Made by a program: the position numbers and the translations under genes | The notes under the pieces: model-generated | Seen by the model: the letters and a program-made list of their open reading frames with translations, nothing else | What the model was told of the DNA's origin: nothing | Database searches by the model: none | Assembly (NCBI GenBank): GCA_023227985.1 | Contig: JALOCB010000003.1 | Coordinates: 5,260-69,259 of the forward strand | Length of the DNA stretch: 64,000 nt | Direction: 5' to 3' | Source: Candidatus Omnitrophota bacterium | Lineage (GTDB): Bacteria; Omnitrophota; Gorgyraeia; Gygaellales; Profunditerraquicolaceae | Part shown: piece by piece, positions 3,001-35,776 of the stretch | How the letters are laid out: each line of letters opens with the position of its first letter | Numbering within the stretch: the stretch's first letter is position 1

Positions 3001-4767
3001 CGGCAGAACAGCCGTTATAACGGACCTTTTAGCCCGTATCAGTTAAAAGGTTTGCGCGTGCTTAAGGATGAACGCCGGGTGATTGATGGTGTCGCTGTTA
3101 ATTTCATTTTCGTGCCCGCGGATAAGAATATCGGAAGGCCGGATATCAAGATACCATATTTCGGCCCGGAAACAACTAACCAGCAGGTGCTTGATACTAT
3201 GAAGGCCTTAGGTTTAGAGTTGGATGTCATGGCCTATTACGGCCCGACCAGCGAAACGGTTCAGCCCAGGATATTCAAGGAGTTCATTGAGGCTGGATTG
3301 CCTGTTGTAGCAGCTTCTCCGGTCAACACCGACGCTGTAAAAAATATGCTCAAAGCTAAGTTTCAGCAGGAAGGTGTTGCGGATGATATGCTGGATGAAG
3401 CGGTGAGTAAGGCTTTTAAGGAAGGTTTGTATTCCGCTACCCGTAAAGAAATCGGCGCGGATGTCAAGATCGTGGATACTTTAAGCTGCACTTCCAATGC
3501 CATGATTTCGGTTATTAAAGCAATGTGGGATAAGTTCGGTATCGATCATGGTACCGGCCTGACTATTCATTCCCAGACTGATTCCAATGAGACTTTCCCG
3601 ATGAAAAGCGGCAGGGCCAGGGATCCCCTGGATATCGCCCGCGGCGATTCCATCCGTGACAACATAATCCCTGCTTCAACCGGCGCAAAAAAGAACCTCT
3701 TTAAGATGATCCCGGAATTAAAAGGCAGGTTCGAGATCACCGCTGTTCGCACCGGTACTGTTTCGGCTTCGACCTGGGAGATGACCATGGACCTTAAGAC
3801 TGAAGTGACCAGGGATGATGTCCTTGCGGCTTTAAAGGATTTCGCCCTGAATAAGACCGACGGGGTGGTGAAATTTCACGAAGGAGACCCGGACAGGAAT
3901 CCCGGGCCTCTGGACGCCAACGCCGTGGTCGGCTGGAATAATGTTTCTATTATCGACAGTTTATTGATCAATGTTCTGGATAATAAGAAAACAGTGACTA
4001 TTAAAGGTTTGTATGATAACCAATCAGCGGCGCCGAATCAAATGGTTTCTAAATGGTCGCCGTGGATGGTTGACGGTTTAAGGCTGCGCCAGATAGTCGG
4101 CGAAAAGAACAGCAAAAAGCTGAACAAAGCCGAAGCTGTAGCGTATGCCAAACTCAACGCCGGTTATGCCGGCCTGCTTAAAGCCGTAAGCGCGGTAAAA
4201 ACCAGCGGAGCTCTGGTGGTCAGCGCTGACGTGGTCTTAAAGAACGCCGGGACGCTTTCATCGCTCAAAGCCTTGAAAGAATCAGGCGCTCTTATTGAGA
4301 TCATTGTCCAGGCGAACAACAAGGCTGTCGCTGATAAAATGGTATCAATGGGCGTTGAACAATTCGCGAGCATTCAGTTCAAGCAGGTTAACGCGATAGT
4401 AGAAGAGTTGAATACCAAAGGTATAACTGATGAAAGAATAGTAGTGCTTAAGACCAAAGCTGAATCGAAAGAAGAAGTCAAGAATACCGTCAAGGTGGTC
4501 AATGTCGGCGAAGCTAAAGTCGCCGAATCTTCTGTTAATGCCATGTCGATAGCAGTGGCAAAGGCAGTAACCACCGTGTTGCAGGATAATACGGAGGTTG
4601 TTGATCAATATCAGCAGATGGCGAAGAATTACGCCGAAGCTAACGACGTCGAGCTAAGCAAACTGGAAGATCTGACCAGCCAGATCTCGGATATGCCGCT
4701 GGTTAAGGTGAGCGAAGAAGTGGTCAAGGCTCAGGTTACTTACGAAGAAACTGTAAACAAGATCTAA
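4..4767 (+). CDS. Giant multidomain glycolytic fusion protein, 5'-partial (>1587 aa): class II fructose-bisphosphate aldolase segments + PPi-type 6-phosphofructokinase + GAPDH + conserved C-terminal module
   Basis: ORF is open from window position 4, so the gene continues upstream. aa 1-90 match the class II FBA C-terminal half (GTAHGN..., IVQHGVTGTP vs FVFHGGSGST). aa ~200-450 match the class II FBA N-terminal/catalytic half (TIMCCNIRS..VVIFQQA; IKGDHL = HxDH; EVGEIGGKEN). aa ~455-850 match PFK (RRIGVLTGGGPASGHNAVI; GGDDTNG; PKTMDNDI; FGRAAG). aa ~930-1270 match GAPDH (catalytic SCTSNAM, HSQT, NIIPASTGAAK). aa ~1395-1587 form a module shared with the next gene. Confidence 0.8.
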   Translation: MIQRLAINNGTAHGNNYDADGKLIETQMNLKMTAAIAEVIKAYGIQIVQHGVTGTPIKNLQALRNVGIRAAHVGTNWQNIIWETLVAQAQAGNSTAKSIVNRMIDATIAKTADVEKKYKVSGRSAEAKDSVYVPGKDKNLDKLIGKELKMVLGVFNDELVALPDDLIAKIDEATEKSATEHMLGFGSDGTAQMVKDDYAVQGLVYPEDFSSIKGLYAFKALEGTDKTIMCCNIRSPLSIRGIMRAAQKTGSVVIFQQAMSEFDYTWKGGYAPENAAKLARNIKEAAKKENFHDFMIKGDHLTVKVDDAFLKDKAAQDAVAVVFEKILDEQDVSKREALFNAASKDEVLLANAGVAKAMKAVNKAMTLIKEEVASDFTVFALDASFMPTRLNVLVSAYLAGFIPQDAGLEAEVGEIGGKENSTVADALEFITGIRFKEEVVVSQGVKYSQLVGPRRIGVLTGGGPASGHNAVIAAMVREAEQRGIEIVAIPEGWAGLTKDEVAAQAKVITIKDVEKWGKKGGTMLGTSRTNPYKKEGDAQKVWDNIQKLKLDGLVTLGGDDTNGVTSKLQKEHPDYLFIGLPKTMDNDIALPESDAQTYGFDSFTVKASESFEAGKIDAQSTHRILIAEVFGRAAGFVSARIGANIGATRTLIPEELVDLSKLVEDLRSYYKNNKYGVVVVAEGASVNVDGFKLDENGELTVVKPEDPDVKLLLAAFKSDPMAKAAFIKSMKAEMDDFGHKKLENVGLIVAAVVKTALKADKIDISFAGKADYLFRSADVSKLDAEMTTMLGKAAVEKIADIQNDQLLYAYKGQIKSIPFARELGGRVLDYKGAHKDEYMLANLALIDEKTEITLSDASVNEDLFQAAVRNLKGLNPGELMTLSFSEMKVLLWKLNSLDQETGDNQEVVQSVRRILHRIDDRQIEQVKKFANIGVFARENTAYNLESVLKDDNILVIAANALIFRAGAFAEFYHNWEPGVNLAAIKSMKGGKEATAEEFVRQNSRYNGPFSPYQLKGLRVLKDERRVIDGVAVNFIFVPADKNIGRPDIKIPYFGPETTNQQVLDTMKALGLELDVMAYYGPTSETVQPRIFKEFIEAGLPVVAASPVNTDAVKNMLKAKFQQEGVADDMLDEAVSKAFKEGLYSATRKEIGADVKIVDTLSCTSNAMISVIKAMWDKFGIDHGTGLTIHSQTDSNETFPMKSGRARDPLDIARGDSIRDNIIPASTGAKKNLFKMIPELKGRFEITAVRTGTVSASTWEMTMDLKTEVTRDDVLAALKDFALNKTDGVVKFHEGDPDRNPGPLDANAVVGWNNVSIIDSLLINVLDNKKTVTIKGLYDNQSAAPNQMVSKWSPWMVDGLRLRQIVGEKNSKKLNKAEAVAYAKLNAGYAGLLKAVSAVKTSGALVVSADVVLKNAGTLSSLKALKESGALIEIIVQANNKAVADKMVSMGVEQFASIQFKQVNAIVEELNTKGITDERIVVLKTKAESKEEVKNTVKVVNVGEAKVAESSVNAMSIAVAKAVTTVLQDNTEVVDQYQQMAKNYAEANDVELSKLEDLTSQISDMPLVKVSEEVVKAQVTYEETVNKI
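4190..4767 (+). repeat. Copy A of a duplicated ~570-nt segment encoding the shared C-terminal module (paired with 12130..12698)
   Basis: The last ~60 nt (gatctgaccagccagatctcggatatgccgctggttaaggtgagcgaagaagtggtcaaggctcaggttacttacgaagaaactgtaaacaagatctaa) is about 80% identical to the last ~60 nt of the next gene (gacctgaccagccagatctcggagatacccatggccaaggtcagcgaagaagtcgctaaggcgcaggccacttatgaggagactataagcaagatataa). Protein-level similarity extends ~190 aa upstream (ALVVSADVVLKNAGTL... vs ALVVSANAVLNNAGTL...). Confidence 0.7.
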
Positions 4768-4773
4768 CATTCT

Positions 4774-4828
4774 CAAGACCCGGTCTTGCATCCCAATGAG
4801 TCCTAATGGGTTGCAAGACCGGGTCTTG
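4774..4828. repeat. Paired palindromic motif CAAGACCCGGTCTTG ... CAAGACCGGGTCTTG. It forms a ~22-bp stem hairpin 7 nt after the stop of giant gene 1.
   Basis: caagacccggtcttgca-tcccaatgagtcctaatggg-ttgcaagaccgggtcttg. The arms are reverse complements, and each 15-mer is itself a near-palindrome. No U-tract follows. Confidence 0.75.
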
Positions 4829-4925
4829 AACATGTCTTTATATGAATAAGATAAATCCGTTTCAATTTAAAAACCGCAACAGGCAGAAGTTGTAATTTAA
4901 TTCAAATCATCAACCGGAGGGAAAA

Positions 4926-7900
4926 ATGTTCGTAAGGTTATCCCAAAACAACCTGTTCAGGAAGATCGTCGGCATTCTTATTCTTTTACAATTTTCAGCC
5001 GGTTTTGCCGTGATTAGGGGTTATGCTGCTCCCGGAAATTTGCGGCCTGCCGCCGTCAAACAGGATGGTTCCCGGTCCGGGACTATCCAGAATTCGCTTG
5101 ACGCGGCCAGCCTGGATAAGGTTATAAAAACCCCGGTCATTCATAAGGACGGCGGTATAACCGGCCAGGATGTTTTTAAGAATATCCTTGGCGAATACCG
5201 TGTTTCCTCCACGATAAACAATCTCGCTTTCGGGACGTTCGTCCAGGGGCAGATCGACCTTAGTTCGGTTCAGAACCGGGAAGCGCTGGTCAATAATTTC
5301 GGGGAGATTAAGAGCAAAGATCGTTTTTTTACCCTTGAATACGCGGGAATTCCGCTTGCCCTGGTCAAGAAGGCCGAAACCGGAGAAATTACCGTCAAGA
5401 AAGTAGTCGAAGACATTGCTTCGATCCCGCTCAACATCCTTTCCGACAATGCCGAAAAGCTCAAAACCGAAGGTGTTACTTCCTCGGATATCCTGGTCCG
5501 CGATTTTCTTATCCTTGAAAAAAGGTCGCGTATCGACATCACTCAGTGCATGACCGTAGAGTTTGGCGAGCTGCGCGACTACGTATACAATCTGGCTAAA
5601 AATGTCGGCCAGGAAAAGGCACTGGAGATGGCATCGGCGTTTGCGGGTAAGGCTACCGTTGACGAGGCTATGGCGGAAGTCGGCGAGAAAGCTAAGCAGT
5701 TAGGCCGCGACCAAGCGAAGGACACAGGTCTGGCGCTGGCCGGCGGTAAGGGTTTGAGCCTTTCGGTCATGAGCCGCGTGGTTGACGTGCCGCCTGGTTT
5801 GAACGTTACTACTACCGCGTATTTTAAGTTCGTCAAAGATAATAAACAGGTCTGGGAGAAGATCTTTAATGAGCTGCAGACCTTGGATACTATGGATGAC
5901 CAGAAGCGCGACGTTGTCACTTCGGAGATCCGCGATGTCATTAAAAGCGCGCCGATACCCGAAGACATCAAGGCTGAGGTAACAGCAATGTACCACCAGC
6001 TAAGCGTTATCCGTTTTCTTGCCGGTAAACCTTCGCCCGCTCCGGTGGCTGTCCGCTCTTCCGGCACCAAAGAGGATATTCACGTTAAAACCTGGCTGCC
6101 GGTTTCCACCGGTTCCCAGGCCGGCCAGTCGGATACATTCCTTAATGTTAAGGGCGAACGGGATGTCCTGGATAAATTACGCGCCGATTGGGCGTCTTTA
6201 TTTACCGATCGCGCGGTCAGCTACCGTGATGACGCCACCTTCTTGCAGTTCTCTGGAGCCATCGATTTTAACGGTAAGACTTCTCAGGATGTCTATTGGG
6301 GGATCGTGGCGAAGCTTCGGGAATACTCCAAGAAACTGGATAAGCCTGAATATAACGTGTACGCTGACTTAATGAGTAAAGTCACCAGCCCTAACCCTGG
6401 GTCGGTGAGCCTGATGAACGCCATGGAGGAGATCCTGAGACAGGAATCGAATCCGGAGATGTCCAATGCCCTTGCCGTTCTGAAGAAGAAAGCAGAGGAG
6501 GTTGTGCATCCCGAACAGATCGGTATCGACGTTGTGATCATGCAGATGGCTAAGAGTTATCTTGCCGGCGTGCTTTTTACCGTCAATCCGGCGACCAAGA
6601 TGGCCGGTGTGGCCCAGTCGTTATACAAGTCATGGTATATGGGTGATGATTCGCTCGTGTACCGCGACGCGAAGACCGATATTATCCAGGGAACCAGGCC
6701 CATAGTGGTGAGCTTTGATGTGGCCTTCGGCTACGGCGAGAACGTAGTCGGCGGCAAGGTAAACCCGGACAAGTTCATTATGGGCACCTACGACGGCGAG
6801 AGCTGGTTTGTTATCGAGAAAAGCAAAGGCAATAAACTTATTCAGATGAAGGACGTGGAAGAAGTCATCGATCTCCTCAAAGACAAGATATCGGAAAAGG
6901 GCCAGCGGCAGCTCGCTATGACCGTGAAAGACGCGATCGCGTATGATGAGGTCGGCAAGCGGATCAACGGCATTATGGCGACCAAACTCTACGGTATCAA
7001 GTATCTTAAGGCGCTTGAGGGTAAAGAGGAAAGCGATAAAGACAAGAAGGCCCGCGTACAGGCTATCGCCAATGAGATTGCCGACATGGTCAAGAATAAG
7101 GTTTCCGAGGATGAAGTTGTCGCGTTCATCAAGGGTAACTTTGAGGTCGTTAACCGGAAGGGCTATAAAGGCATTCAGGAAATGGCGCTTTCGGGAGTGG
7201 TCAGGGAAGTGTTTGAGAAAGTCCAACAGGCCCAGGCTGAGACCGACCGGGGTATGTTTAAACTCTCAAAGCAGCTCGGCGATATGGGAAAGGCCGATAC
7301 GCTTATCCATATGATCAAGGAGGTTTGGGAGAATAAGGAATTTACTCTTTCCGACCGCCAGGCGATTCTTGACAAACTGAACCTTACCAACCAGGAATTG
7401 CGTAATATGAGTTACCTTATCCGCGCGCTGGTGGATAATAGCTTTACTTCAAATTATGAGACTACTTTAACCCACCAGGATACCTTTACTATGACCGATG
7501 ATCAGGCCCAGTATGTGGCGCGTATGGGTTGGGCGATCACCGAATATTATAAGGATGCCCGAGATATAGAGTATGCCATCGAGATAGATAAAACCGCTTC
7601 TTCCGACAAAGCGGTGAGGCTTTACGTTGTGGACGACCTGGGCAATGTCCAGGGAATGGACAATAATGGCAACCTGGTAACGGTGAAGTCCGAAAAGGAT
7701 AAAGCGCGTATAAAAGAAGCGAAGCTGCGCCTGTATAACGTGCAGGCCCGTCCGTATACCGCGGAATACTTGAAGGTGGATGTAATGCGCGCCCGGACCG
7801 AAGCGGATGAAAAGTGGCTTGAGGAGAATTCTCCTAAAGCGATTGCCAGCGGGACTAAGGGAGAGAACGCGACGCAGGGTTATGTGCTGGTGTTCGATCC

Positions 7901-10900
7901 TAACAAAGACGTTGCCTGGCACGCGGACCAGATCCGTCGTTTGAAAGCCGGAGATTTTACTGCGGAGGAAAAAGCCCAGATCATGGCTATGGGGTTTAAT
8001 CCCGAAGAGTATGGTTCAGGCAAAGAAAAGCAATTGTCGGTTATTCTTTATCTGCTTGAAGCTGACCCGAATCATGATCCGATCATGCGCCTGGTTGATT
8101 CGGTTGTTACTATCCGCGGCGGCGATACCTGCCACGCGGCTATCTTTTGCCGTGAACAAGGGATCCCTGCGGTCACCGGCGCGGGCAAGGTTATACTCAA
8201 CGGCCAATTGCTTAAGACCGGTGACGCGGTTACCGTTGATGCTAATAACGGGAATATTTACGAAATGCCCGCTGATGCCGGAGCGCGCATTCCGATCAAC
8301 TACGTGAAATTCAAGATTAAACCGTATGGCATCCCCGGCGACGACGACAATATGCCGTATCCGGGCATCGGCCAGATCATCGCCGCGGCAAGTGCCGCTC
8401 AGCAGAACTCGCCTATTATGCTTGCGGTTGACGCGGTCGGTAACTCGCTGACCCGCGCCGAGTTCAAAGGCGAAGAGATCGGTATCAACGTTTACGCCGG
8501 CTATGGCCATTATCTTTTACAGCAGATCAAGGCCGGAAAAATAAAGGAGCCAGTGAGGGTGCGTGTCCAGGAATTGATCCAGGGCAAGGTTCCCGGCGCA
8601 AAGAGGTTCGTGGACAATATTGAAAATGTTATGGCAGGCGCTTTTGCCAAGGATCCCGCCGCGCGTTCGGCATATCGCGACATTATGGGTAAGGATTTCA
8701 ATAAGGCGGATAGCCTGCAATTGCTGGAGTTTTTCGATTTGAAGAGCGACATTGAGCTGTATGGATTGGATGCGCTTAAACTGGTAAAACAGCAGGTTGA
8801 TATTCTTGATCTCGTTCCCCGGCTTCCGGAGAATATGTATCAGACGCTTGAATATCTTTATGGCGCCACTCAGCGCAGGCTCAACTATGATTATAATATT
8901 ATCGCCGATCTTCAGAACCATCCGTGGATACTGAAAGAAGTCGATTCTAAACTCGCGGAAAAGGGTTACGCGACGTTCAAGGAATACATCACTAACGAAT
9001 TCCTGTATTTTTACAATTTGATGGGTTTTACCATTGCGCCCGATCAGACCGCCAAGAACAGGGCTTACGATTTCGCCCAGGATAAGATCCGCGGCATGCC
9101 CGGTTCCGAGGTTTTTTCCTGGCCCGGAGTCAATCCGTTGGTCGGTTTGCGCGGTACGTCGTTGGAGATCGAGGCCTTTGACGAAGATTTCGGCGGCAAT
9201 CAGCTGGTATTGGATTTTCTTTTTGATTCCGTGATCCAGGCGCACCAGAATACCGGTAACCAAGCCTGGTTTTATGTGTTTGTCCGTTCTTCCCGGGAGT
9301 TAGAGACCCTGGATAAGATCATTGAGCACAAGGCTAAGCAGACCGGGAAGCTTCCGAAAGAGATCGGGATCATGATCGAAGTTCCCAGTGCCGCTTTGGT
9401 GGCTGATGAGCTTGCTGTTAAGATGTCCGAGATGGAGAAAAAATATAAGAAGTATGGCGTTGAGCATACTTTCTTTTCCTTCGGCACTAACGACTATTCG
9501 CATCTTGCTGGTATGGGTGACCGTGAAGACCCGCGAATGAAACTCAAGATTATGGATCCCGCAGCGATCGAAGCGATCGGCGAGATGAAAGCAGCGGGGT
9601 ATTATTATGATGATGCTGCTAAAGTGCTTCCGTTGATTGATGAAGGCGCTGATGTTATGCAGCAGCTTATGGAAACAGTGGTTGCTGCGGCTAATGGTTC
9701 AAGCGTGGCTACCTCGCTTTGCGGCGAGGCGATCACCGCCCTGGTTAACCGCGGGGATTATGAGACCGCAGGCAAGATAATGGCGCTTCTGGATTCTTTC
9801 GGCGTGAGCATGATGAAAGTCCGCCTCGCAGCTTCAATGACGCGCGTGGACACCATGGCGGCTACCAAAGGGATCACCATTCCGGAAGCCGGACGTTCGA
9901 TCCTGTTCGATTTGTCTGCCGGCGAGGTGAAACAGAAAAAGGGCGTCATCAAGGGCGAGATAATATTCGTTGATAATGCCGATGATCTCGTCCCGAACGT
10001 CCTTAAAGGCCTTCAGGGTCCGGAGCTGACGAAAAAGAAAGAGATGTTCAAGCTCCAGAGCCTGGAAAACGCCCGTTCGACTATGCGTACCTTCAATAAG
10101 ATCGTAATTATCACTAAAAACCTCGTTGCTCAGCAGGAGCCTGAGTTGGTCGCGGAGATGGGCAAAGCCGCATTCAGCAAGTTTGTCAATGACGGCCTGC
10201 TTAAAGATATCGGTAATGGGCAGTATGTCTGGACGAATCTGGGTGTAAAGACGGAGAAGTTCAACCAGGAATTGACAATTCAAGGTTTCTCTGAAAAAGA
10301 ACGTAAAGCTATTGAAGGTTTGTGGCAGAAGGCCTGGGATAACAGCATTGAAGGGCTTGAGCGCCGCGGAATTGATTGGGATGATCTACAATATGCCAAG
10401 GCTATAATCGTTGATGCGGACGTTAACCTTGATGGCTGGGATGTGTTCCGCAAGGACAAGAGTATTATTCCGACCCGTATCAAGGCTACGGTCAAAGGTA
10501 TAAGCTCCCGCCGTGCGGAGTTAGAAGGGCAATTGGCAACTATAGATTACGCCGCTAAGAAGGTCTACAAGGATTTTCTCAGCGTGGAAAAGATCGCTGC
10601 CGTCCTGCGCAGTCTTCCTATCCCAGCGGAAAAGCCTATGATAACTACGCAATCGGCTGTCGCGGAGAACGCCAACAGTGTATACCAGAAGATCGGGTAT
10701 CATCCTAAGCTCCTTCTTGCCTATGAGCGGAATGCTGTGAATGAACTTGGAAAGATATTCGAGGAATATGTAGGCAAGCTGGTTGAAGAAGTTGAAAAAG
10801 TTACTCAGGAGACCGACGTTCAGAAACGCGTATGGCTTTTACAGAAACTGCAGAATAAAGTTGGCGGGCTTGCGGAACCGATGATCAAATCGTTTATGAG

Positions 10901-12698
10901 CGATGTGCTTTCCGAGGCCATGCGCACAGGTGCGGTAACGCTGCCGGATAACTGGAACAAGAAGCTTTGGGAGGCCTATCGCAGCGACCTGGAAAGCGAG
11001 ATCAGTAAGATCCTTAACGGAAAGACGGTTGAGCAGTATTTTATCGCGCAGTTCAGCGAACAGATGAAGGAAGTGCTCTCCGCCAACAAAGGGGCATTGG
11101 TTGTCCATCTTTTGGGAAGCCTCAACTGTGTTGATTTCTTTAATATGAAAGGCGGTTTCCTGGTTGAACAGGTCAATCCCAACCCTGATTACGGCATTCT
11201 TGGAGCGGCGCGCGCAATAGGGGATATGTGGGAGATAAACCGCATGGAATTGTCCGCTTTTAAGGCGGTATGGGATAATCTGCCGGTTGACCAGCGCGGT
11301 AATTTTGGCCTGCAGATCACCAATCTCAAAGGCACCCAGTCCGGCGCGGTGGTGATCGGCTGGCGTAATATTCTGAAACAAACCGGTATTATCCCGGGGC
11401 AAGACGGTTTGCAGGTTGGCGTCAATATCGTCACTCCGGCGGATAGCATCGCTGCGGATAAGTATTTTGAGTACTTTAATACGCTCGGAAGCGGGTTAAG
11501 TTTTATCTCATATGATGCGTTGAAGCTTGGCGCTGCCTGGGCCGGCGTGGATATTTTTTGGAAGGAATGGAGGAGGCTGGCTAAGGAAGATGAGTTGTTG
11601 AGGTTCGGCGTCATGACCGGCTGGATGGCGGAAGCCAAGGCTCTGAGGTTCGGCGGCAAAGTCCTTTCCTTTGATATTTCTGACGAAGCCAAACAGACTG
11701 ACGGCGGCGCTGAGGTTGTGCCTTACCGGGTAGTGGTGGAGAATCTCTTCCGGGGGATCATTAAGAAATATGATGCTTTGGATAACGGCCAAGCTCTTTC
11801 TCTCGAAAAAGAAGAGTTGGAGGCAATACTCTGGATCTTGAATTCTTCTCCTTTTGAGAATATGTCAAGCCCGTTTGCCGCGATCAAGAGTATGAAGAAT
11901 ATCAGGAATGTGATCGAAAGGCTCAGCGATGACCAAAAGAAGGCCCTAAGTGTACTTTCACAGGGCTTGGTTTTTGTCAATCACGGGCTGGATAAAAAGG
12001 TGGCGGCATTGCTCGTAGACAAGAAGTTGCTCGACACCGCATATGAATCCGACACGGCGGTATATAAAGGGTTGAACAGCGGTTTTGACAGCTTCGCCAA
12101 TGCCTTGAAAGAGGTTAAGAATGCCGAGGGCGCTTTAGTGGTTAGCGCAAATGCTGTGTTGAATAACGCCGGAACGCTGAGAGTCCTGAGAGAAATAAAA
12201 GAAACCGGGCTGACCTTGGAAATAATCGTCCGGGCTGATACGGAAGATCAGGTGAATAAGCTGATTGCCCTTCGGGCAGACGAAGTCGCGACTATCCAGG
12301 CCAAGCGGCTGTCAGTTGTGCTCAGCGGCTTGAAGAACGCGGGTATAACCGATGGCAAGATAGTGGTGATTAAAGGCAAAGAAGAAGTAAAAGACGCGGT
12401 AGAAGCCGGCGTAAAGGTCGTAGAGATCTCCATGCCTAAAACAGAGGAGTCCAGTATCAACTCCATGGCCTTAGTTGCGGCAAAAGCGGTAATCATAGTG
12501 TTAAATGGTGAAGAAACGGTTGCCGCGCAATACCGGGAAATGGCGGTAAAATACGCCGCAGATAACAGCGTAACCTCTGAAGAATTGGATGATCTGCAGG
12601 ACCTGACCAGCCAGATCTCGGAGATACCCATGGCCAAGGTCAGCGAAGAAGTCGCTAAGGCGCAGGCCACTTATGAGGAGACTATAAGCAAGATATAA
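4926..12698 (+). CDS. Giant 2590-aa protein: N-terminal hydrophobic anchor/signal + pyruvate phosphate dikinase/PEP synthase-like enzyme + ~900 aa unassigned region + conserved C-terminal module
   Basis: RBS ggaggg lies 6 nt upstream of the ATG. N-terminus has the hydrophobic stretch IVGILILLQFSAGFAVI followed by RGYAAPGNLRPAAVK. PPDK N-terminal domain: GGKGLSLSVM...VPPGLNVTTTAYFKFV and VAVRSSGTKED...NVKGERDVLDKLRADWASLFTDRAVSYR. Phospho-His swivel motif: RGGDTCHAAIFCREQGIPAVTG. PEP-utilising TIM barrel: IGIMIEVPSAALVADE...FFSFGTNDYSHLAGMGDRED. The C-terminal ~190 aa are closely related to the C-terminus of the previous gene. Confidence 0.8.
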   Translation: MFVRLSQNNLFRKIVGILILLQFSAGFAVIRGYAAPGNLRPAAVKQDGSRSGTIQNSLDAASLDKVIKTPVIHKDGGITGQDVFKNILGEYRVSSTINNLAFGTFVQGQIDLSSVQNREALVNNFGEIKSKDRFFTLEYAGIPLALVKKAETGEITVKKVVEDIASIPLNILSDNAEKLKTEGVTSSDILVRDFLILEKRSRIDITQCMTVEFGELRDYVYNLAKNVGQEKALEMASAFAGKATVDEAMAEVGEKAKQLGRDQAKDTGLALAGGKGLSLSVMSRVVDVPPGLNVTTTAYFKFVKDNKQVWEKIFNELQTLDTMDDQKRDVVTSEIRDVIKSAPIPEDIKAEVTAMYHQLSVIRFLAGKPSPAPVAVRSSGTKEDIHVKTWLPVSTGSQAGQSDTFLNVKGERDVLDKLRADWASLFTDRAVSYRDDATFLQFSGAIDFNGKTSQDVYWGIVAKLREYSKKLDKPEYNVYADLMSKVTSPNPGSVSLMNAMEEILRQESNPEMSNALAVLKKKAEEVVHPEQIGIDVVIMQMAKSYLAGVLFTVNPATKMAGVAQSLYKSWYMGDDSLVYRDAKTDIIQGTRPIVVSFDVAFGYGENVVGGKVNPDKFIMGTYDGESWFVIEKSKGNKLIQMKDVEEVIDLLKDKISEKGQRQLAMTVKDAIAYDEVGKRINGIMATKLYGIKYLKALEGKEESDKDKKARVQAIANEIADMVKNKVSEDEVVAFIKGNFEVVNRKGYKGIQEMALSGVVREVFEKVQQAQAETDRGMFKLSKQLGDMGKADTLIHMIKEVWENKEFTLSDRQAILDKLNLTNQELRNMSYLIRALVDNSFTSNYETTLTHQDTFTMTDDQAQYVARMGWAITEYYKDARDIEYAIEIDKTASSDKAVRLYVVDDLGNVQGMDNNGNLVTVKSEKDKARIKEAKLRLYNVQARPYTAEYLKVDVMRARTEADEKWLEENSPKAIASGTKGENATQGYVLVFDPNKDVAWHADQIRRLKAGDFTAEEKAQIMAMGFNPEEYGSGKEKQLSVILYLLEADPNHDPIMRLVDSVVTIRGGDTCHAAIFCREQGIPAVTGAGKVILNGQLLKTGDAVTVDANNGNIYEMPADAGARIPINYVKFKIKPYGIPGDDDNMPYPGIGQIIAAASAAQQNSPIMLAVDAVGNSLTRAEFKGEEIGINVYAGYGHYLLQQIKAGKIKEPVRVRVQELIQGKVPGAKRFVDNIENVMAGAFAKDPAARSAYRDIMGKDFNKADSLQLLEFFDLKSDIELYGLDALKLVKQQVDILDLVPRLPENMYQTLEYLYGATQRRLNYDYNIIADLQNHPWILKEVDSKLAEKGYATFKEYITNEFLYFYNLMGFTIAPDQTAKNRAYDFAQDKIRGMPGSEVFSWPGVNPLVGLRGTSLEIEAFDEDFGGNQLVLDFLFDSVIQAHQNTGNQAWFYVFVRSSRELETLDKIIEHKAKQTGKLPKEIGIMIEVPSAALVADELAVKMSEMEKKYKKYGVEHTFFSFGTNDYSHLAGMGDREDPRMKLKIMDPAAIEAIGEMKAAGYYYDDAAKVLPLIDEGADVMQQLMETVVAAANGSSVATSLCGEAITALVNRGDYETAGKIMALLDSFGVSMMKVRLAASMTRVDTMAATKGITIPEAGRSILFDLSAGEVKQKKGVIKGEIIFVDNADDLVPNVLKGLQGPELTKKKEMFKLQSLENARSTMRTFNKIVIITKNLVAQQEPELVAEMGKAAFSKFVNDGLLKDIGNGQYVWTNLGVKTEKFNQELTIQGFSEKERKAIEGLWQKAWDNSIEGLERRGIDWDDLQYAKAIIVDADVNLDGWDVFRKDKSIIPTRIKATVKGISSRRAELEGQLATIDYAAKKVYKDFLSVEKIAAVLRSLPIPAEKPMITTQSAVAENANSVYQKIGYHPKLLLAYERNAVNELGKIFEEYVGKLVEEVEKVTQETDVQKRVWLLQKLQNKVGGLAEPMIKSFMSDVLSEAMRTGAVTLPDNWNKKLWEAYRSDLESEISKILNGKTVEQYFIAQFSEQMKEVLSANKGALVVHLLGSLNCVDFFNMKGGFLVEQVNPNPDYGILGAARAIGDMWEINRMELSAFKAVWDNLPVDQRGNFGLQITNLKGTQSGAVVIGWRNILKQTGIIPGQDGLQVGVNIVTPADSIAADKYFEYFNTLGSGLSFISYDALKLGAAWAGVDIFWKEWRRLAKEDELLRFGVMTGWMAEAKALRFGGKVLSFDISDEAKQTDGGAEVVPYRVVVENLFRGIIKKYDALDNGQALSLEKEELEAILWILNSSPFENMSSPFAAIKSMKNIRNVIERLSDDQKKALSVLSQGLVFVNHGLDKKVAALLVDKKLLDTAYESDTAVYKGLNSGFDSFANALKEVKNAEGALVVSANAVLNNAGTLRVLREIKETGLTLEIIVRADTEDQVNKLIALRADEVATIQAKRLSVVLSGLKNAGITDGKIVVIKGKEEVKDAVEAGVKVVEISMPKTEESSINSMALVAAKAVIIVLNGEETVAAQYREMAVKYAADNSVTSEELDDLQDLTSQISEIPMAKVSEEVAKAQATYEETISKI
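12130..12698 (+). repeat. Copy B of the duplicated C-terminal-module segment (paired with 4190..4767)
   Basis: See copy A. The two copies can be aligned codon by codon. Confidence 0.7.
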
Positions 12699-12778: not shown

Positions 12779-15700
12779 ATGTCCAGGCCGTCTAAAAACA
12801 ATAGTATCTCTAAAATAATTTCCGGCGTTGTGATCGCGCAATTTATCATGAGCAGTATAGCCCTGCGCGGTTATGCCGGCACAGACAATTTAAGGCCGGC
12901 TCCGGTCAAAGATTCCGACCGGATAAGCGTTCTGGCCGATGAATTGCAGAAAGACGGCGGCAAACTGGCTGAATGGATCCATATCTTAGCGGAAAATACA
13001 ATTGTGGGCGATGCCGCTAAAGGTTCGAACGTCGGCATGGTCATACGGCTGGGAAAGCTTGTTGAAGAGAATATATCCGGGTCCATATTAGGGCATTCGG
13101 CAAACCGGAAGGCGTATATAAAGGAAGTGGGCGCTCAAATCGCTGAAGGGCTGCGTTTGACCGGAATGGAAGAAAAGGCGATCGCGGCTGCCAGCCGCAA
13201 GATAGCTTTTTCCAGATACGATAACATCATGAATCACCGGATCCAGGCGATGTTTCAAGCAGGGATCAGGGAGATCTGCCTTTGCGTAGGCAGTGATAAG
13301 GATAAGCTCACCGTTGAGGAAGAGATATCGGATGTGCTTGCGCAGTTGCAGGTGTCTTTTGCCGATGTCTCTTTGGAACAAATAAAAAAGATAATTTTCC
13401 ACGTGGCTTGGGAGCCTGCGGCGAATATCGGCACCGGTACTGCTGTCGGTCCGGAAAAGATCAAGCTGGTCCATCAGGCTATCTATGAATTCTTTGCCGA
13501 GAAGTATAATACACCCTCCGGGTATATCGGCGATGTTTGGGGGAAGTCATTGAAAATACTTTACGGCGCAAGCGTTGACGGAAAGAACGTCGACGGCATA
13601 ATGGCGGTGAAAGAGGATAAAGGCATGGCTTTGGTGCACGGCGTGTTATTCGCTTCTTCGGGTAAAAAGGCCGATGGCTTCCTGGCTGTGGCCGAGGGGG
13701 TTAGCCGCGCCGCGGAAAGGGATAACGCCCAGTATGTCTGTTTTGTCAACCTTAAGGAATTCGCCAGGGCTGAGAAAGATGAGGCTTTGACTTTTGTCGT
13801 CGAGATCGTCCGGGCCATTGCTTTAGGACGGATCGATCCCCGGCATACCATTCTGGCGATCGCTGACCAGGATGTACATCTAAAGGAGTGGCAGGACGCG
13901 ATCGTCGGCAGAAGCGTTTCGATGTCGGACGGCGGATACGCGTATGTTGAAGGAACGAACTTTAAGGACAAGAATGTGCTTTTTCGCCCGGATTATAACA
14001 CTCCGGCTTCGGTAAAGACCGATGATCAGGGTAATGTTTTGTCGATCAAAATATCCGACGCAAGCAGGATCGTTGATTCCTTCCCGGCTTTGACCAAGAT
14101 CCTGAAAGATAAGCCAAAACATGTGGTTGTCGTTGTCCATTTCGAACCTAAGGTGTTGAATCCCGCGACCGGTAAGAAAGACAAGAAAAATCTGTCTACT
14201 AAAGTCACAGCGGACAAACTTAAAGAATTGCTGCCGGCGGAATATAAAGATAAGGTAATATTCCTGGCTGATTCAGTCAATGACAATGGGATTGCCGCCG
14301 AAGCAATGCGGGCTATAGAAAGTTATACTGATTCCGAGATCATCGTATTGGAAAATATCCGTTTTGCCAAAGGCGAAAAGAAAGGTGCCCCCGAGCTTAA
14401 TGATCCTAAAGGTGTAGCTTTACGCAAACAGCTTTCAGGATTAGCGGACGAATATGTGGTGGATGCCTTGGGTAATATTCATCGCGCCCACGCATCAATG
14501 CTGCCTTTGCCCGGGGTGCATAAAGTCATGGGCAGTCTTGTGGAAAAAGAGATTAAAGTGTTCAACCGGATACTTAACCCGGCGCATCCTTATGCCGGGG
14601 TTAACGGCGGTAATAAGGTTGAAGATAAAGTGGATACCATGGATGTGTCTTTGTCGACGATGCAGGAAGGCGACGCGATCATCATCGGCGGGGCTATGGC
14701 CTACACTTTTTTAAAGGCGCAGGATCCAACATTGAAATTGGGCAAATCACTTGTTCAGGCGGATAAAGTTGATCTGGCTAAGACTATACTTGAGAAGGCC
14801 GCCCGGAAGAAGGTGCGGATAATCCTTCCAGTGGACCATCGCATCTCGGATAAACTCGCTCCCGGAGCAGCAGAATTGGTTACTGAGGGGCTGGAAGTGC
14901 CGGATGGGTACATGGCGGTAGATATCGGACCCAAGACTGAAAAAATAGTCGCCGAGGTCTTAAGTAATGCCCAGACCGCTTTTTGGAACGGCCCAATGGG
15001 CGCGTTCGAGGATGAGGCTGGTGGTTTTAATAAGGGGACTTATACGGTTGCCAGGGAACTGCAGAAAATGGGCAGGTCCGGACGCCTGGCCGGTATCGGC
15101 GGCGGGGAGACACGTATGGCAGCAATTAAGGCCGGGGTTACCGATGCTGACGGCGTGTTCATGTCCAGCGGCGGCGGTTCCACGCAGGAATATTTCGCCA
15201 AGAAAGGCAATCTCCCGGTGATCAAGAATCTGGAGAATGACGAAACCGCCCAGAAAAATCTCGTCCTCGCGGGGAAATTGGGGGTAGAACCCGCGGATCT
15301 GGCGCGTTTTGAAGCGGCAGACAGCAGTATTTATAATGCCTTGGGAGATAAACTTTTCAACGGCTATATATCTCAGGTCAGAAGGTTGCTTCCCAGGTTT
15401 TCGACAGGCCAGAAATTAAACGGCGCTCTGTCCAAAGCAGAGGTCTCTGCGGAGGTGATTAAAGATTCGCGCGGAAACAATACTGTCCGGGCAACTTTAA
15501 AGATCGGGGATATTGTTACTGTCGGCGAAGTCCCTGCAGGCGCTTCCAAAGGGGCAGCTGAGGCTTTTGCTTTTCCGCCGAAGGAAATAGATAGGGCGAT
15601 CGCCAACGTGGCGAAGATCCAGGAGATACTTAAGAACAGCGGCCTGGATATAAGCAAACACAGCGATCTGCGCAAGACGGAACAATTGATCATTGCCGCG

Positions 15701-17302
15701 GCCGGTGAAAACTTCGCGACACTGGGCGCGAACGCCACAGTCCCTATTTCCTGGGCCTTGTGGAGGATGGCGGCAGCGTTGAATAATATGGAACTCTGGG
15801 AATACATCCGGATCAATGAGCCGGGAGTTGTCGGTAATGATCCGGTTTATTTCTATATGAACATATATAACGGCGGGCTGCACGCTTCCGGAGGCGACGC
15901 TTCGGTATTGGGTACAGTTTGGACCGAATTCCAGGAGATGCTGATCGTGCCCGTGGGCGCTAAAACTCACGCCGAAGGCGTGGCTATGGGAGATAAGATC
16001 GACCAGGAATTGAAGAAAATACTGAAAGGTAAATTCGCGGAAGCGGATATAATGCGTAAAGATGAAGCTGGTTTCGCGGTCAAAGGCCTGGGAAAAAGCG
16101 AAGACGCGATCGCTTATGTGGTACAGGCGATCAGGAACGCCGGCTATGAGCCCGGTAAAGACGTAAAGCTGGCTTTGGATGTCGCCGCGACCTCTTTCTA
16201 CGACGAGAAAGAGAATATATACAAGTTCCAGGGCCAGAAATTGACCTCAGCCGAGATGGTCGATTTTTACGTCAAACTGGTAAAGCAATATGACGGCCTG
16301 TTCCTTTCTATAGAAGACGGCCTGGCTGAAGAAGATTGGCAGGGATGGGTAGAGCTAACCGCGGCTATGAAAGAAAAAGGCGTCCTGACTATAGGCGATG
16401 ATCTGTACGTTACCCAGCACGGCCGGTTGAACAAAGGGCTGGCGATGAACGCGGCTACAGCGATCCTGATCAAGGTTAATCAAAATGGGACCCTGGGCGG
16501 AACTATCGATGTTATGAAGACCGCCAAGGCCAATGGCATTAAAGCTGTGGTATCGCACCGTTCCGGAGAAACTCTGGATGCCGGGATCGCGGATCTGGCT
16601 TACGCAACCCGGGCGTTCGGGCTTAAAACCGGGGATCCTCAACCTTTGGTTGATTTCCAGAATCCGAACGAACTGGTGCGCCGGGCTAAGTATGACAGGA
16701 TGATCGAGATCCAGAAACAAGAAAACATCCAAAATGACCCGGCATTATCCAGGCCTAAAGCGCTGTTGATCAATGCGGATTTTTTCAAATCCGGCGCGGT
16801 TAAGAACGCTGTGGCGGAAATAGCGAGATTAAACGGGAATATCAATGTGGTGATCTACGGAGATAATGCCGAAAAGCTAAAGACGCTGGTAGGAAATCCC
16901 GATATTATCGCGGTGCGGAGTTTGACTGCAGCTGTCTCTGAAATAGCTAACCGCGGGGTAAAATCTTCTCAGGATGCCGTTATTTTGACGCCTATGCCGT
17001 ATAGCTCGGAAACGTTTATTGTTCAAATCCGCAGCGGAGAAATAAGCACGCTGGCTTTGGCCAAGGCGGTAAAGCAGTTATTCAAGAACGACCGGATCAC
17101 CGCGGCTATGGATGAATTCTATAAATCGCTGGTTGATAACAAAGTGGTTTCCGAGCAGGACTACATAAATACAAGGGAAAAAATCCTAACGGATCTGATC
17201 GACGGTGTTTACAACCTGGGTGAGATTAAGTTGACAAAACAGGTATCTGATGTTATAGAAAAGGAGCGGCTGGTAACCGAAGAGTTCGTGGGTAAAGTGT
17301 AA
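12779..17302 (+). CDS. Giant 1507-aa fusion protein: N-terminal anchor + triosephosphate isomerase + phosphoglycerate kinase + enolase domains
   Basis: RBS aggagg lies upstream of the ATG. N-terminus has IISGVVIAQFIMSSIALRGYAGTDNLRPAPVK, sharing the RGYA..NLRPA.VK motif with the previous gene. TIM domain: GHSANRK, AWEPAANIGTGTA, ILYGASVDGKN. PGK domain: ENIRFAKGEKKG, GNIHRAHAS, GGAMAYTFLKA, VDIGPKT, FWNGPMGAFE, GIGGGET. Enolase domain: IKDSRGNNTV, MLIVPVGAK, LALDVAATSFY, LSIEDGLAEEDW, IGDDLYVTQ, ILIKVNQNGTL, VVSHRSGETLD. Confidence 0.8.
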   Translation: MSRPSKNNSISKIISGVVIAQFIMSSIALRGYAGTDNLRPAPVKDSDRISVLADELQKDGGKLAEWIHILAENTIVGDAAKGSNVGMVIRLGKLVEENISGSILGHSANRKAYIKEVGAQIAEGLRLTGMEEKAIAAASRKIAFSRYDNIMNHRIQAMFQAGIREICLCVGSDKDKLTVEEEISDVLAQLQVSFADVSLEQIKKIIFHVAWEPAANIGTGTAVGPEKIKLVHQAIYEFFAEKYNTPSGYIGDVWGKSLKILYGASVDGKNVDGIMAVKEDKGMALVHGVLFASSGKKADGFLAVAEGVSRAAERDNAQYVCFVNLKEFARAEKDEALTFVVEIVRAIALGRIDPRHTILAIADQDVHLKEWQDAIVGRSVSMSDGGYAYVEGTNFKDKNVLFRPDYNTPASVKTDDQGNVLSIKISDASRIVDSFPALTKILKDKPKHVVVVVHFEPKVLNPATGKKDKKNLSTKVTADKLKELLPAEYKDKVIFLADSVNDNGIAAEAMRAIESYTDSEIIVLENIRFAKGEKKGAPELNDPKGVALRKQLSGLADEYVVDALGNIHRAHASMLPLPGVHKVMGSLVEKEIKVFNRILNPAHPYAGVNGGNKVEDKVDTMDVSLSTMQEGDAIIIGGAMAYTFLKAQDPTLKLGKSLVQADKVDLAKTILEKAARKKVRIILPVDHRISDKLAPGAAELVTEGLEVPDGYMAVDIGPKTEKIVAEVLSNAQTAFWNGPMGAFEDEAGGFNKGTYTVARELQKMGRSGRLAGIGGGETRMAAIKAGVTDADGVFMSSGGGSTQEYFAKKGNLPVIKNLENDETAQKNLVLAGKLGVEPADLARFEAADSSIYNALGDKLFNGYISQVRRLLPRFSTGQKLNGALSKAEVSAEVIKDSRGNNTVRATLKIGDIVTVGEVPAGASKGAAEAFAFPPKEIDRAIANVAKIQEILKNSGLDISKHSDLRKTEQLIIAAAGENFATLGANATVPISWALWRMAAALNNMELWEYIRINEPGVVGNDPVYFYMNIYNGGLHASGGDASVLGTVWTEFQEMLIVPVGAKTHAEGVAMGDKIDQELKKILKGKFAEADIMRKDEAGFAVKGLGKSEDAIAYVVQAIRNAGYEPGKDVKLALDVAATSFYDEKENIYKFQGQKLTSAEMVDFYVKLVKQYDGLFLSIEDGLAEEDWQGWVELTAAMKEKGVLTIGDDLYVTQHGRLNKGLAMNAATAILIKVNQNGTLGGTIDVMKTAKANGIKAVVSHRSGETLDAGIADLAYATRAFGLKTGDPQPLVDFQNPNELVRRAKYDRMIEIQKQENIQNDPALSRPKALLINADFFKSGAVKNAVAEIARLNGNINVVIYGDNAEKLKTLVGNPDIIAVRSLTAAVSEIANRGVKSSQDAVILTPMPYSSETFIVQIRSGEISTLALAKAVKQLFKNDRITAAMDEFYKSLVDNKVVSEQDYINTREKILTDLIDGVYNLGEIKLTKQVSDVIEKERLVTEEFVGKV

Positions 17303-19549: not shown

Positions 19550-19679
19550 TCTTGAGCTCAAGATCCCCACAGTAATAAAAGCCTTGACCAGGCAATTAAC
19601 CTGTGTTAAATTCGAATATTGTCTTCATTAGCCATTTCTGTAATATTCTGTTATCTCGTTCATATTTAGGAGGGGAATA

Positions 19680-20996: not shown

Positions 20997-21006
20997 GGTT
21001 TAGCCA

Positions 21007-21921: not shown

Positions 21922-21925
21922 AAAA

Positions 21926-25086: not shown

Positions 25087-25217
25087 TGGTCTCGCGCTGA
25101 GACCTTTAGATATATGGGAGAAGAAAGGGGGTGTTTCAGGCAAATACGCTAACCTGCTTTCCGGCAAGACTTAAAAATAAGCGGAACAAAATATAATATA
25201 ACAAAGGAGGAGTAAAG

Positions 25218-30126: not shown

Positions 30127-31688
<1,562 letters not shown>

Positions 31689-35774: not shown

Positions 35775-35776
35775 AA

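What the first reader, a model, noticed from the sequence alone, without database searches (positions are those of the whole stretch)
9876..12126. About 750-900 aa of giant gene 2 has no recognisable enzyme motif: candidate novel domain(s)
Between the dikinase module and the shared C-terminal module, roughly 750-900 aa (DTMAATKGITIPEAG ... KEVKNAEG) show protein-like composition but none of the glycolytic signatures I can recognise. I found no pyruvate kinase ARGDLG motif and no PGM His motif. Given the context, this region could hold a divergent enzyme that completes the pathway (PGM, PGI, hexokinase) or structural scaffolding.
Basis: inference. Interest (0 to 1): 0.55.

Follow-up and report, generated by a model that had tools for sequence, protein, structure and literature searches.

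The report
Dead duplicate of dikinase domains
The "unrecognisable" 750 residues of this giant Omnitrophota glycolytic fusion protein are mostly a catalytically dead second copy of the enzyme's own phosphohistidine and PEP-binding domains, not a hidden glycolytic enzyme or a new fold.

Summary
The stretch is real coding sequence: aa 1642-2402 of a 2590-aa ORF (window 4926-12698). It is conserved in about 55 proteins, and every homolog that carries an organism label comes from an Omnitrophota-type MAG.

It is not a new fold or a missing glycolytic enzyme. About 625 aa (window 9846-11720) are a degenerate tandem duplicate of the two domains just upstream.

- **Swivel-like domain.** hhalign against the genuine swivel family gives 85-87% probability, E about 5e-6. 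It carries an optional ~70-aa insert.
- **TIM-like barrel.**
  - hhalign against the genuine PEP-binding domain: 99.8%, E 1.5e-27.
  - PDB profile hit to PEP synthase 2OLS: E 8.6e-13.
  - AF2 model: pLDDT 91.7.
- **Catalytic residues.** His, Arg, Glu, Asn-Asp and Cys are invariant in the genuine copies and lost in the duplicate. Strand β2 is deleted.
- **Conservation.** The module is 60-65% identical to its orthologs, against 28-33% for the linkers. It always sits directly after a genuine dikinase.

The last ~135 aa are a poorly conserved helical connector that also occurs in giant gene 1.

A stand-alone iPGM lies elsewhere in the window, so no PGM is missing.

The most likely role (inferred) is a pseudo-subunit or scaffold, or a regulatory half. 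This is a new variant of a known kind, of moderate interest.

The parts
4926..12698 (+). Giant gene 2 (2590 aa). Order of parts: signal-peptide-like leader, expanded PEP synthase-type dikinase, degenerate swivel+TIM duplicate, helical connector, shared C-terminal module.
   Evidence: ORF list and translation; Pfam and NCBIfam domains; exact match to ENA contig ERZ27247363 k141_735648.
5736..6977 (+). Genuine nucleotide-binding domain of the dikinase (PPDK_N, aa 271-684).
   Evidence: Pfam PF01326, E 1.4e-53.
8040..8252 (+). Genuine phosphohistidine swivel domain (PEP-utilizers, aa 1039-1109). Catalytic His1070 lies in GGDTCH.
   Evidence: Pfam PF00391, E 2e-14; His invariant in 26/26 family members.
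8916..9845 (+). Genuine PEP/pyruvate-binding TIM barrel (aa ~1331-1640), carrying Arg1409, Glu1485, Asn1522-Asp1523 and Cys1599.
   Evidence: Pfam PF02896, E 7.6e-11; each of these residues is invariant in 25/25 members.
9846..10133 (+). Duplicate module, swivel-like domain, first half (aa 1641-1736): a beta-hairpin (GVIKGEIIFVD), a helical hairpin and the strand KIVIIT.
   Evidence: AF2 model pLDDT 86-98 here after the first ten residues; hhalign with a short-form master aligns it to the genuine swivel N-terminal half.
10134..10343 (+). Optional ~70-aa insert inside the swivel-like domain (aa 1737-1806): helix-helix-beta-hairpin plus helices. It is absent in P0010/11/12/19/20/23/25 and duplicated in P0007. 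Fold unassigned.
   Evidence: jackhmmer domain map; AF2 secondary structure; no PDB or Pfam hit.
10344..10604 (+). Duplicate module, swivel-like domain, second half (aa 1807-1893). 'AIIVDADVNLDGWDVF' aligns to 'SVVTIRGGDTCHAAIF', so Gly1837 (nt 10434-10436) takes the place of the catalytic His.
   Evidence: hhalign Prob 86.7%, E 4.4e-6 and 84.8%, E 6.5e-6 over 141 columns; colinear sub-threshold HMMER hits to the PpsA swivel in 2OLS and 9DAE; the His column holds G/E/T and others in 18 members.
10605..11720 (+). Duplicate module, degenerate PEP-utilizers_C-like TIM barrel (aa 1894-2265) with a helical excursion (aa ~1938-2053) and strand beta2 deleted. Leu2092 replaces Arg, Val2169 replaces Glu, Leu2199-Lys2200 replace Asn-Asp, and there is no Cys.
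11721..12125 (+). Poorly conserved helical connector (aa 2266-2400). It is related to aa 859-954 of giant gene 1 and to the connector of P0018.
   Evidence: BLASTP E 9e-6 to ORF1; 28% identity and 50% coverage in orthologs; P0018 alignment; no Pfam hit; low pLDDT.
12126..12695 (+). Shared C-terminal module (aa 2401-2590). It lies outside the finding and marks its downstream boundary.
   Evidence: 46% identity to the C-terminus of giant gene 1; no significant Pfam hit.

Best explanation
Shown: residues ~1641-2265 of giant gene 2 are an internal tandem duplicate of the dikinase's own last two domains. These are the phosphohistidine swivel domain followed by the PEP/pyruvate-binding TIM barrel. 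The copy has lost every residue needed for phosphotransfer. Gly replaces the phospho-His. Leu replaces the NPxLGxRG Arg. Val replaces the IExP Glu. Leu-Lys replace the GTND Asn-Asp, and the CGE Cys is missing. Strand beta2 of the barrel is also deleted. The copy has gained a helical excursion and an optional ~70-aa insert. It is therefore a pseudoenzyme module and not a missing glycolytic enzyme. Residues 2266-2400 are a loosely conserved helical connector, also used between modules in giant gene 1. Inferred: the module is kept under purifying selection and is always fused directly behind a genuine dikinase. PEP-utilising enzymes normally dimerise or oligomerise through this barrel. The module therefore most likely acts as a built-in pseudo-subunit or scaffold that pairs with the genuine barrel and fixes the dikinase unit within the multi-enzyme polypeptide. 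A regulatory (effector-binding) role for the former active site is the main alternative.
For: Identity of the TIM-like part:
- NCBIfam PEP_synth E 4.8e-11.
- phmmer hit to 2OLS E 2.5e-5; family profile hit to 2OLS E 8.6e-13 and to 9DAE E 5e-5.
- Genuine barrels of PpsA-like relatives BLAST to both aa 1346-1551 and aa 2021-2202.
- hhalign of the module family against the genuine-domain family gives 99.3%/3e-20 local and 99.8%/1.5e-27 global over 357 columns.
- AF2 with a 32-sequence alignment gives pLDDT 91.7, pTM 0.70.
- All 19 Foldseek PDB hits with E<=1e-3 are PEP synthase, PPDK or Enzyme I.

Identity of the swivel-like part:
- hhalign 86.7%/4.4e-6 and 84.8%/6.5e-6 over 141 columns.
- Reciprocal weak HMMER hits at consistent positions.
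- Colinear sub-threshold hits to the PpsA swivel plus the 'IHPKALL' motif.
- The Foldseek alignment to full-length 2OLS spans 449 columns.

Loss of catalysis: His is 26/26 and Arg, Glu, Asn, Asp and Cys are each 25/25 in the genuine copies. None is conserved in 18-30 module copies.

Retained function:
- Identity to orthologs is 60-65% for the module, 77-85% for the catalytic domains and 28-33% for the connector and C-terminal module.
- The module directly follows a genuine dikinase in every hit that is complete on that side, whatever is fused downstream.
- Synteny is conserved in L004, L008 and L010.

No need for a hidden PGM: a stand-alone iPGM and a stand-alone enolase are in the window.
Against: The functional part (pseudo-subunit or scaffold) is inference only. 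No inter-domain or oligomer model could be run, and the model coordinates could not be inspected. The swivel-like assignment rests on ~85% hhalign probability and colinearity. It has no domain-level structural superposition, because the fold searches were dominated by the barrel. The loop 'EQVNPNPDYGLLGAARAI(G)D.W' is very strongly conserved. That would also fit a retained ligand-binding site rather than pure scaffolding. Pfam's own PF02896 and PF00391 models do not reach threshold on the segment. The family is small (55 representatives), so the conservation statistics come from few lineages.
Confidence: 0.6

Rival explanations
1. Regulatory half. The former PEP/pyruvate site of the dead barrel, perhaps with the swivel-like domain, binds a metabolite such as PEP, pyruvate, Pi/PPi or AMP and tunes the neighbouring dikinase allosterically. 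This would parallel the duplicated halves of eukaryotic PFK-1 and hexokinase I.
For: The loop that carries the phosphate-binding Arg in genuine enzymes is among the most conserved parts of the module (EQVNPNPDYG..GAARAIGD). Glu2081 is >=90% conserved across all second copies, and Arg2096 and Asp2100 are >=90% conserved or invariant within the giant-type subset. The module is under purifying selection.
Against: The four canonical ligand and Mg2+ contacts (Arg, Glu, Asn, Asp) are all replaced by variable residues. Strand beta2 is deleted. No binding-site model or ligand data are available. Few polar residues are invariant across the whole family.
Confidence: 0.25
2. Cryptic new enzyme. The barrel has evolved a different active site and supplies a missing pathway step (PGM, PGI, hexokinase or a pyruvate kinase-like step).
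Confidence: 0.05
3. Functionless remnant. The duplicate is a decaying spacer that merely separates the dikinase from the C-terminal module.
For: All catalytic residues are gone and one strand is deleted. The downstream connector is poorly conserved.
Against: The module is about twice as conserved as the true connector (60-65% against 28-33%). It is retained in about 20 different architectures, including proteins without the C-terminal module (L008/P0005, L005, P0004). It folds with pLDDT 91.7. No frame disruptions occur except in one JGI population.
Confidence: 0.05

Closest known systems
PEP/pyruvate-binding C-terminal domain of PEP-utilising enzymes (Pfam PF02896; PEP synthase PpsA, PPDK, PTS Enzyme I; e.g. 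PDB 2OLS, 9DAE, 8A8E, 1VBG, 2WQD)
   Different: All catalytic and ligand residues (Arg, Glu, Asn-Asp, Cys) are lost. Strand beta2 (G.GL.R.EF) is deleted. It has a ~100-aa helical excursion. It occurs as a second copy behind an intact one. It falls below Pfam's own threshold.
Phosphohistidine 'swivel' / mobile domain (Pfam PF00391)
   Same: Profile-profile similarity of 85-87% probability, colinear over 141 columns, with the closing 'G..VTvD...G.vY' hairpin. The location N-terminal to the barrel is the same.
   Different: There is no His or T-S-H motif; the position is Gly/Glu. An extra helical hairpin and an optional ~70-aa insert split the domain. It is not detected by the Pfam HMM. The fold was not verified by a domain-level superposition.
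Duplicated-and-fused glycolytic enzymes with one inactive half (eukaryotic PFK-1, hexokinase I) - analogy from textbook knowledge, not tested here
   Same: Tandem duplication of a catalytic unit within one polypeptide. One copy loses catalysis but is retained, acting as a pseudo-subunit and/or effector site.
   Different: Here only two of the three dikinase domains are duplicated. The host is a bacterial multi-enzyme fusion. No regulatory ligand is known.
Multimeric archaeal PEP synthase (Staphylothermus / Pyrococcus; PDB 9DAE, 8A8E)
   Same: It is the best structural match of the module barrel. In those enzymes the PEP-binding domain forms the oligomeric core (entry titles; bioRxiv 10.1101/2022.08.11.503304 listed). 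This makes an architectural role for such a barrel plausible.
   Different: Those barrels are catalytically intact single copies. Oligomerisation of the Omnitrophota module is untested.
Glycolytic and PPDK domains inside Omnitrophota giant proteins (West-Roberts et al. 2023, bioRxiv 10.1101/2023.11.21.568195)
   Same: Same phylum, and the same phenomenon of glycolytic and dikinase domains embedded in very long proteins.
   Different: In the passages found, that paper lists domains only and does not describe a degenerate second swivel+barrel copy.

Membership tests
PEP-utilizers_C (PF02896) PEP/pyruvate-binding domain | Significant sequence similarity to family profiles or members | tested here: met
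   TIGR01418 E 4.8e-11; 2OLS E 8.6e-13 with the family profile; hhalign 99.8%, E 1.5e-27 against the genuine domains of the same proteins. Pfam's own HMM is below threshold on the segment.
PEP-utilizers_C (PF02896) PEP/pyruvate-binding domain | (beta/alpha)8 barrel fold of PpsA/PPDK/EI C-domains | tested here: met
PEP-utilizers_C (PF02896) PEP/pyruvate-binding domain | Catalytic and ligand residues: Arg of NPxLGxRG, Glu of IExP, Asn-Asp of GTND, Cys of CGE (identity of the residues from published EI and PPDK work, recalled; their invariance tested here) | tested here: not met
   Each is 25/25 in the genuine copies. The module columns are variable (Leu/Cys/Lys..., Ala/Ser/Thr..., Glu/Arg/Asp..., Arg/Lys..., gap).
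PEP-utilizers mobile (swivel) domain (PF00391) | Sequence similarity to the family | tested here: inconclusive
   hhalign 86.7%/4.4e-6 and 84.8%/6.5e-6; weak reciprocal HMMER hits; no Pfam hit.
PEP-utilizers mobile (swivel) domain (PF00391) | Phosphorylatable His in the G-G-x-T-S/C-H motif | tested here: not met
   The aligned position is Gly1837. The family column holds G 11, E 2, T 2 and single other residues, and no His.
PEP-utilizers mobile (swivel) domain (PF00391) | Swivel-domain fold | not testable with these tools
   A confident AF2 model exists, but the model cannot be split, and the whole-model searches were dominated by the barrel.
Missing glycolytic enzyme (PGM, PGI, hexokinase/glucokinase, pyruvate kinase) | Profile, motif or fold match to one of these families | tested here: not met
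Functional PEP synthase / PPDK unit (for the upstream part of the gene) | Three domains with His, Arg, Glu, Asn-Asp and Cys intact | tested here: met
   PPDK_N, PEP-utilizers and PEP-utilizers_C detected; catalytic residues present and invariant. The whole-protein NCBIfam score is far below the equivalog cutoff because of large insertions.

The most novel reading that the evidence does not exclude
The dead swivel+barrel copy is a purpose-built intramolecular pseudo-subunit, possibly also an effector sensor. It would let a normally dimeric or oligomeric PEP synthase work as one self-contained module of a leader-bearing, three-polypeptide glycolytic assembly held together by the shared C-terminal modules. 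That would make it a previously undescribed pseudoenzyme solution to building a bacterial glycolytic metabolon. The optional ~70-aa insert and the ~135-aa connector would then be new small domains used for inter-module contacts.
Probability: 0.3. Interest if true: 0.55.

Novelty: new variant of a known kind. Interest (0 to 1): 0.4.

Why it matters
The result removes a tempting but wrong reading, that a novel enzyme is hidden in the gap. It replaces that reading with a concrete, testable one. An Omnitrophota-type clade of PEP synthase-like dikinases carries a conserved, catalytically dead duplicate of its own phosphohistidine and PEP-binding domains. This is a clean natural example of pseudoenzyme evolution by internal duplication in a central-metabolism enzyme. 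It lies inside unusual multi-enzyme glycolytic fusion proteins, so understanding it bears on how these megaproteins are assembled and regulated. The module is not a new fold or a new chemistry, so the interest is moderate.

Tried and rejected
- **BLASTP self-comparison** of aa 1101-1650 against the segment gave nothing significant (best E 0.14). Profile methods were needed to see the duplication.
- **Pfam** on the segment and on its pieces gave no significant family.
- **The word-indexed protein search** found only two homologs. The first AF2 run on that 3-sequence alignment was unusable (pLDDT 42).
The alignment was rebuilt from database proteins only.
- **The afdb50 fold library** was unavailable, so the distribution of the two-domain module in AlphaFold DB was not checked.
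- **The optional insert and the connector** gave only insignificant hits in PDB profile and Pfam searches (best E 0.45). A winged-helix guess for the insert, based on its helix-helix-beta-hairpin pattern and a TcpK hit at E 0.67, is therefore not claimed.
- **Hidden PGM, PGI, hexokinase or pyruvate kinase** is rejected.
- **Minus-strand ORFs** inside the region (10839..11402 and 11189..11692) are treated as by-products of the long conserved + strand ORF and were not pursued.
- **Literature searches** for fused glycolytic enzymes in Omnitrophota found no description of this duplicate.

Full report
**What is there**

The window opens with three long + strand ORFs.
- 4..4767 is cut by the window edge. 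The gene is 1673 aa in the source contig.
- 4926..12698 encodes 2590 aa.
- 12779..17302 encodes 1507 aa.

Pfam shows that these are fusions of glycolytic enzymes.
- Giant gene 1: class II aldolase pieces, PFK and GAPDH.
- Giant gene 2: PPDK_N, PEP-utilizers and PEP-utilizers_C.
- Giant gene 3: TIM, PGK and enolase.

The window is identical to ENA metagenome contig ERZ27247363 k141_735648. All labelled homologs come from Candidatus Omnitrophota MAGs, except one that is labelled Deltaproteobacteria.

The finding covers aa ~1642-2402 of giant gene 2.

**Check of the observation**

The region is real coding sequence.
- Homologs of 45-58% identity span it without frame breaks on independent contigs L004-L008.
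- An exhaustive HMMER search of 1.84 billion representatives returned 55 matching proteins, most of them very long fusions.
- Pfam finds nothing in the segment.
- None of the PK, PGM, hexokinase or PGI signature motifs is present.

More sensitive models, however, already see PEP synthase homology in the middle of the segment: TIGR01418 at E 4.8e-11 and PDB 2OLS at E 2.5e-5.

**The C-terminal two-thirds of the core is a degenerate PEP-binding barrel**

- A profile of 15 family members hits Neisseria PEP synthase 2OLS at E 8.6e-13 and archaeal PEP synthase 9DAE at E 5e-5.
- The genuine PEP-binding domains of smaller PpsA-like relatives align by BLASTP both to the genuine domain of giant gene 2 (aa ~1346-1551) and to aa ~2021-2202. 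An iterated HMM merges the two.
- Profile-profile comparison of the module family with the genuine-domain family of the same proteins gives 99.3% (E 3e-20) locally and 99.8% (E 1.5e-27) over 357 columns globally.
- With a 32-sequence alignment, AlphaFold2 gives a confident model (mean pLDDT 91.7, pTM 0.70). An earlier 3-sequence attempt failed (pLDDT 42).
- All 19 Foldseek PDB hits with E<=1e-3 are PEP synthase, PPDK or PTS Enzyme I.

**The N-terminal third is a degenerate swivel domain**

- Profile-profile comparison of aa 1641-1900 with the family of genuine phosphohistidine domains gives 86.7% (E 4.4e-6).
- Using a relative that lacks the insert as master, the alignment extends over 141 columns at 84.8% (E 6.5e-6). 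It then also includes the first beta-hairpin and a helical hairpin at the same place.
- HMMER gives weak but positionally consistent reciprocal hits.
- In the PDB profile search, sub-threshold hits align 'LEG..VTIDY..G.vY' with the end of the PpsA swivel domain, and 'IHPL.LL.Y' with PpsA 'IHPKALLEF'. These hits are colinear with the barrel hit.
- This assignment is weaker than the barrel assignment. I could not cut the model to run a domain-level fold search.
- Inside the swivel-like domain lies a ~70-aa segment (aa 1737-1806) that is absent in seven relatives and duplicated in P0007. It is confidently folded but matches nothing in PDB or Pfam.

**The copy is catalytically dead but maintained**

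| Residue in the genuine domains | Genuine copies | Aligned position in the module |
|---|---|---|
| Phospho-His | 26/26 | Gly1837 (family: G/E/T...) |
| Arg of NPxLGxRG | 25/25 | Leu2092 (L/C/K/R/H...) |
| Glu of IExP | 25/25 | Val2169 (A/S/T/D...) |
| Asn-Asp of GTND | 25/25 each | Leu2199-Lys2200 (variable) |
| Cys of CGE | 25/25 | mostly gaps |

The functional roles of these residues come from the published EI and PPDK literature, recalled and not re-derived here.

A ~20-residue deletion also removes strand beta2, which carries 'G.GL.R.EF'.

Identity of the window protein to its orthologs (value quoted for L004):

| Region | Identity |
|---|---|
| Module | 60-65% |
| Genuine catalytic domains | 77-85% |
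| Connector and C-terminal module | 28-33% |

The module directly follows a genuine dikinase in every hit that is complete on that side, whatever is fused downstream.
- P0006 continues with TIM, aldolase and enolase.
- P0004 continues with a membrane-spanning 4169-aa protein.
- L008/P0005 has nothing further downstream.
- L005 has a different extension.

Canonical-size PpsA-like proteins of the same clade carry the dead barrel alone, with the same beta2 deletion. One of them, P0018, occupies the same syntenic slot in GCA_026387435.1. This suggests a single old duplication.

**The remaining ~135 aa (aa 2266-2400)**

This is a poorly conserved helical connector.
- It is detectably related to aa 859-954 of giant gene 1 (E 9e-6) and to P0018.
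- It has no Pfam hit.
- It precedes the C-terminal module, which is 46% identical between giant genes 1 and 2.

**Mechanism**

Shown: the segment is a pseudoenzyme duplicate plus a connector.

Inferred:
- PEP-utilising enzymes dimerise or oligomerise through this barrel. The best structural matches, 9DAE and 8A8E, are the multimeric cores of archaeal PEP synthases.
- The most economical role is therefore an intramolecular pseudo-subunit or scaffold for the genuine barrel inside a multi-enzyme polypeptide.
- A regulatory role is the main rival. It is favoured by the very strong conservation of the loop EQVNPNPDYG..GAARAIGD. It would be analogous to the inactive halves of eukaryotic PFK-1 and hexokinase I (textbook knowledge).
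- A cryptic new enzyme and a functionless remnant are both unlikely, for the reasons given under the rival explanations.
An archaeal-type iPGM (47544-48830) and a canonical enolase (30393-31682, minus strand) are encoded separately in the window.

**Novelty**

Glycolytic and PPDK domains in Omnitrophota giant proteins have been noted before (bioRxiv 10.1101/2023.11.21.568195). I found no description of the dead swivel+barrel duplicate. The literature tool covers only open-access text.

I rate the finding as a new variant of a known kind, with interest 0.4. The broader system is more remarkable than this segment: three leader-bearing glycolytic megaproteins that share a C-terminal module.

Noticed in passing
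window 4926-5070 and 12779-12910; also the N-termini of P0003, P0007, P0008, P0010 and P0018: Giant genes 2 and 3 and their homologs start with a signal-peptide-like leader (basic n-region, hydrophobic core, 'GYA|A' or 'GYA|G') followed by a conserved 'NLRP(A/S)' motif. That is odd for glycolytic enzymes. West-Roberts et al. also noted that such domains were predicted to be extracellular.
   Followed up: no
window 30393-31682 (-) and 47544-48830 (+): A stand-alone canonical enolase (Enolase_C 415 bits, against 215 bits for the fused enolase in giant gene 3) and a stand-alone archaeal-type iPGM coexist with the fusion genes. The fused enzymes may therefore be a divergent second set.
   Followed up: partly
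window 4-1320 (giant gene 1, N-terminal part): The C-terminal half of class II aldolase (profile 167-273) lies at aa 3-122, before what looks by eye like the aldolase N-terminal half (aa ~215-440). In P0006 the order appears canonical. This could be a circular permutation or two partial copies. The ORF start is cut by the window (full length 1673 aa).
   Followed up: no
L001 4627-4818 / 4770-6428 (likewise L002 and L003): In three JGI metagenome contigs the homologous gene changes frame at module residues ~50-65, and gene calling splits it into several ORFs. This is either a real frameshift or pseudogene, or a shared assembly error.
   Followed up: partly
P0004 (4169 aa), P0006 (3069 aa), P0007 (3288 aa): The dikinase+module unit is fused to very different partners. 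In P0006, read by eye from the sequence, these are TIM, aldolase and enolase. In P0004 there are hydrophobic segments followed by a long, unannotated extension. P0007 carries the ~70-aa insert twice.
   Followed up: partly
window 12126-12695 and 4200-4764; giant gene 3 C-terminus 16900-17299: A shared ~190-aa C-terminal module ends in '...VSEEV.KAQ.TYEET..KI'. It is 46% identical between genes 1 and 2 and only weakly similar in gene 3. It has no Pfam family (best TrkA_N, E 0.036). It also ends many unrelated hits (P0013, P0016, P0026, P0040, P0042, P0053...), so it is a candidate docking or assembly domain.
   Followed up: partly
window 17400-18701 (+): A 433-aa ORF directly after the three giant genes has no Pfam hit. 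ORFs of similar size follow the giant genes in L004 (19603-20871) and L008.
   Followed up: no
window 18827-29303 and 34986-39767: Downstream context: PilZ protein, sugar ABC transporter (SBP plus two permeases), GH2-like TIM-barrel proteins and, on the minus strand, Rnf complex genes (RnfB-like, RnfD, RnfC). This fits a sugar-fermenting Omnitrophota genome.
   Followed up: partly
L006 (JBLMZF010000057.1): The contig carrying a clear ortholog (53% identity, same architecture and C-terminal module) is labelled 'Deltaproteobacteria bacterium'. This is probably a mis-binned or mislabelled MAG.
   Followed up: no
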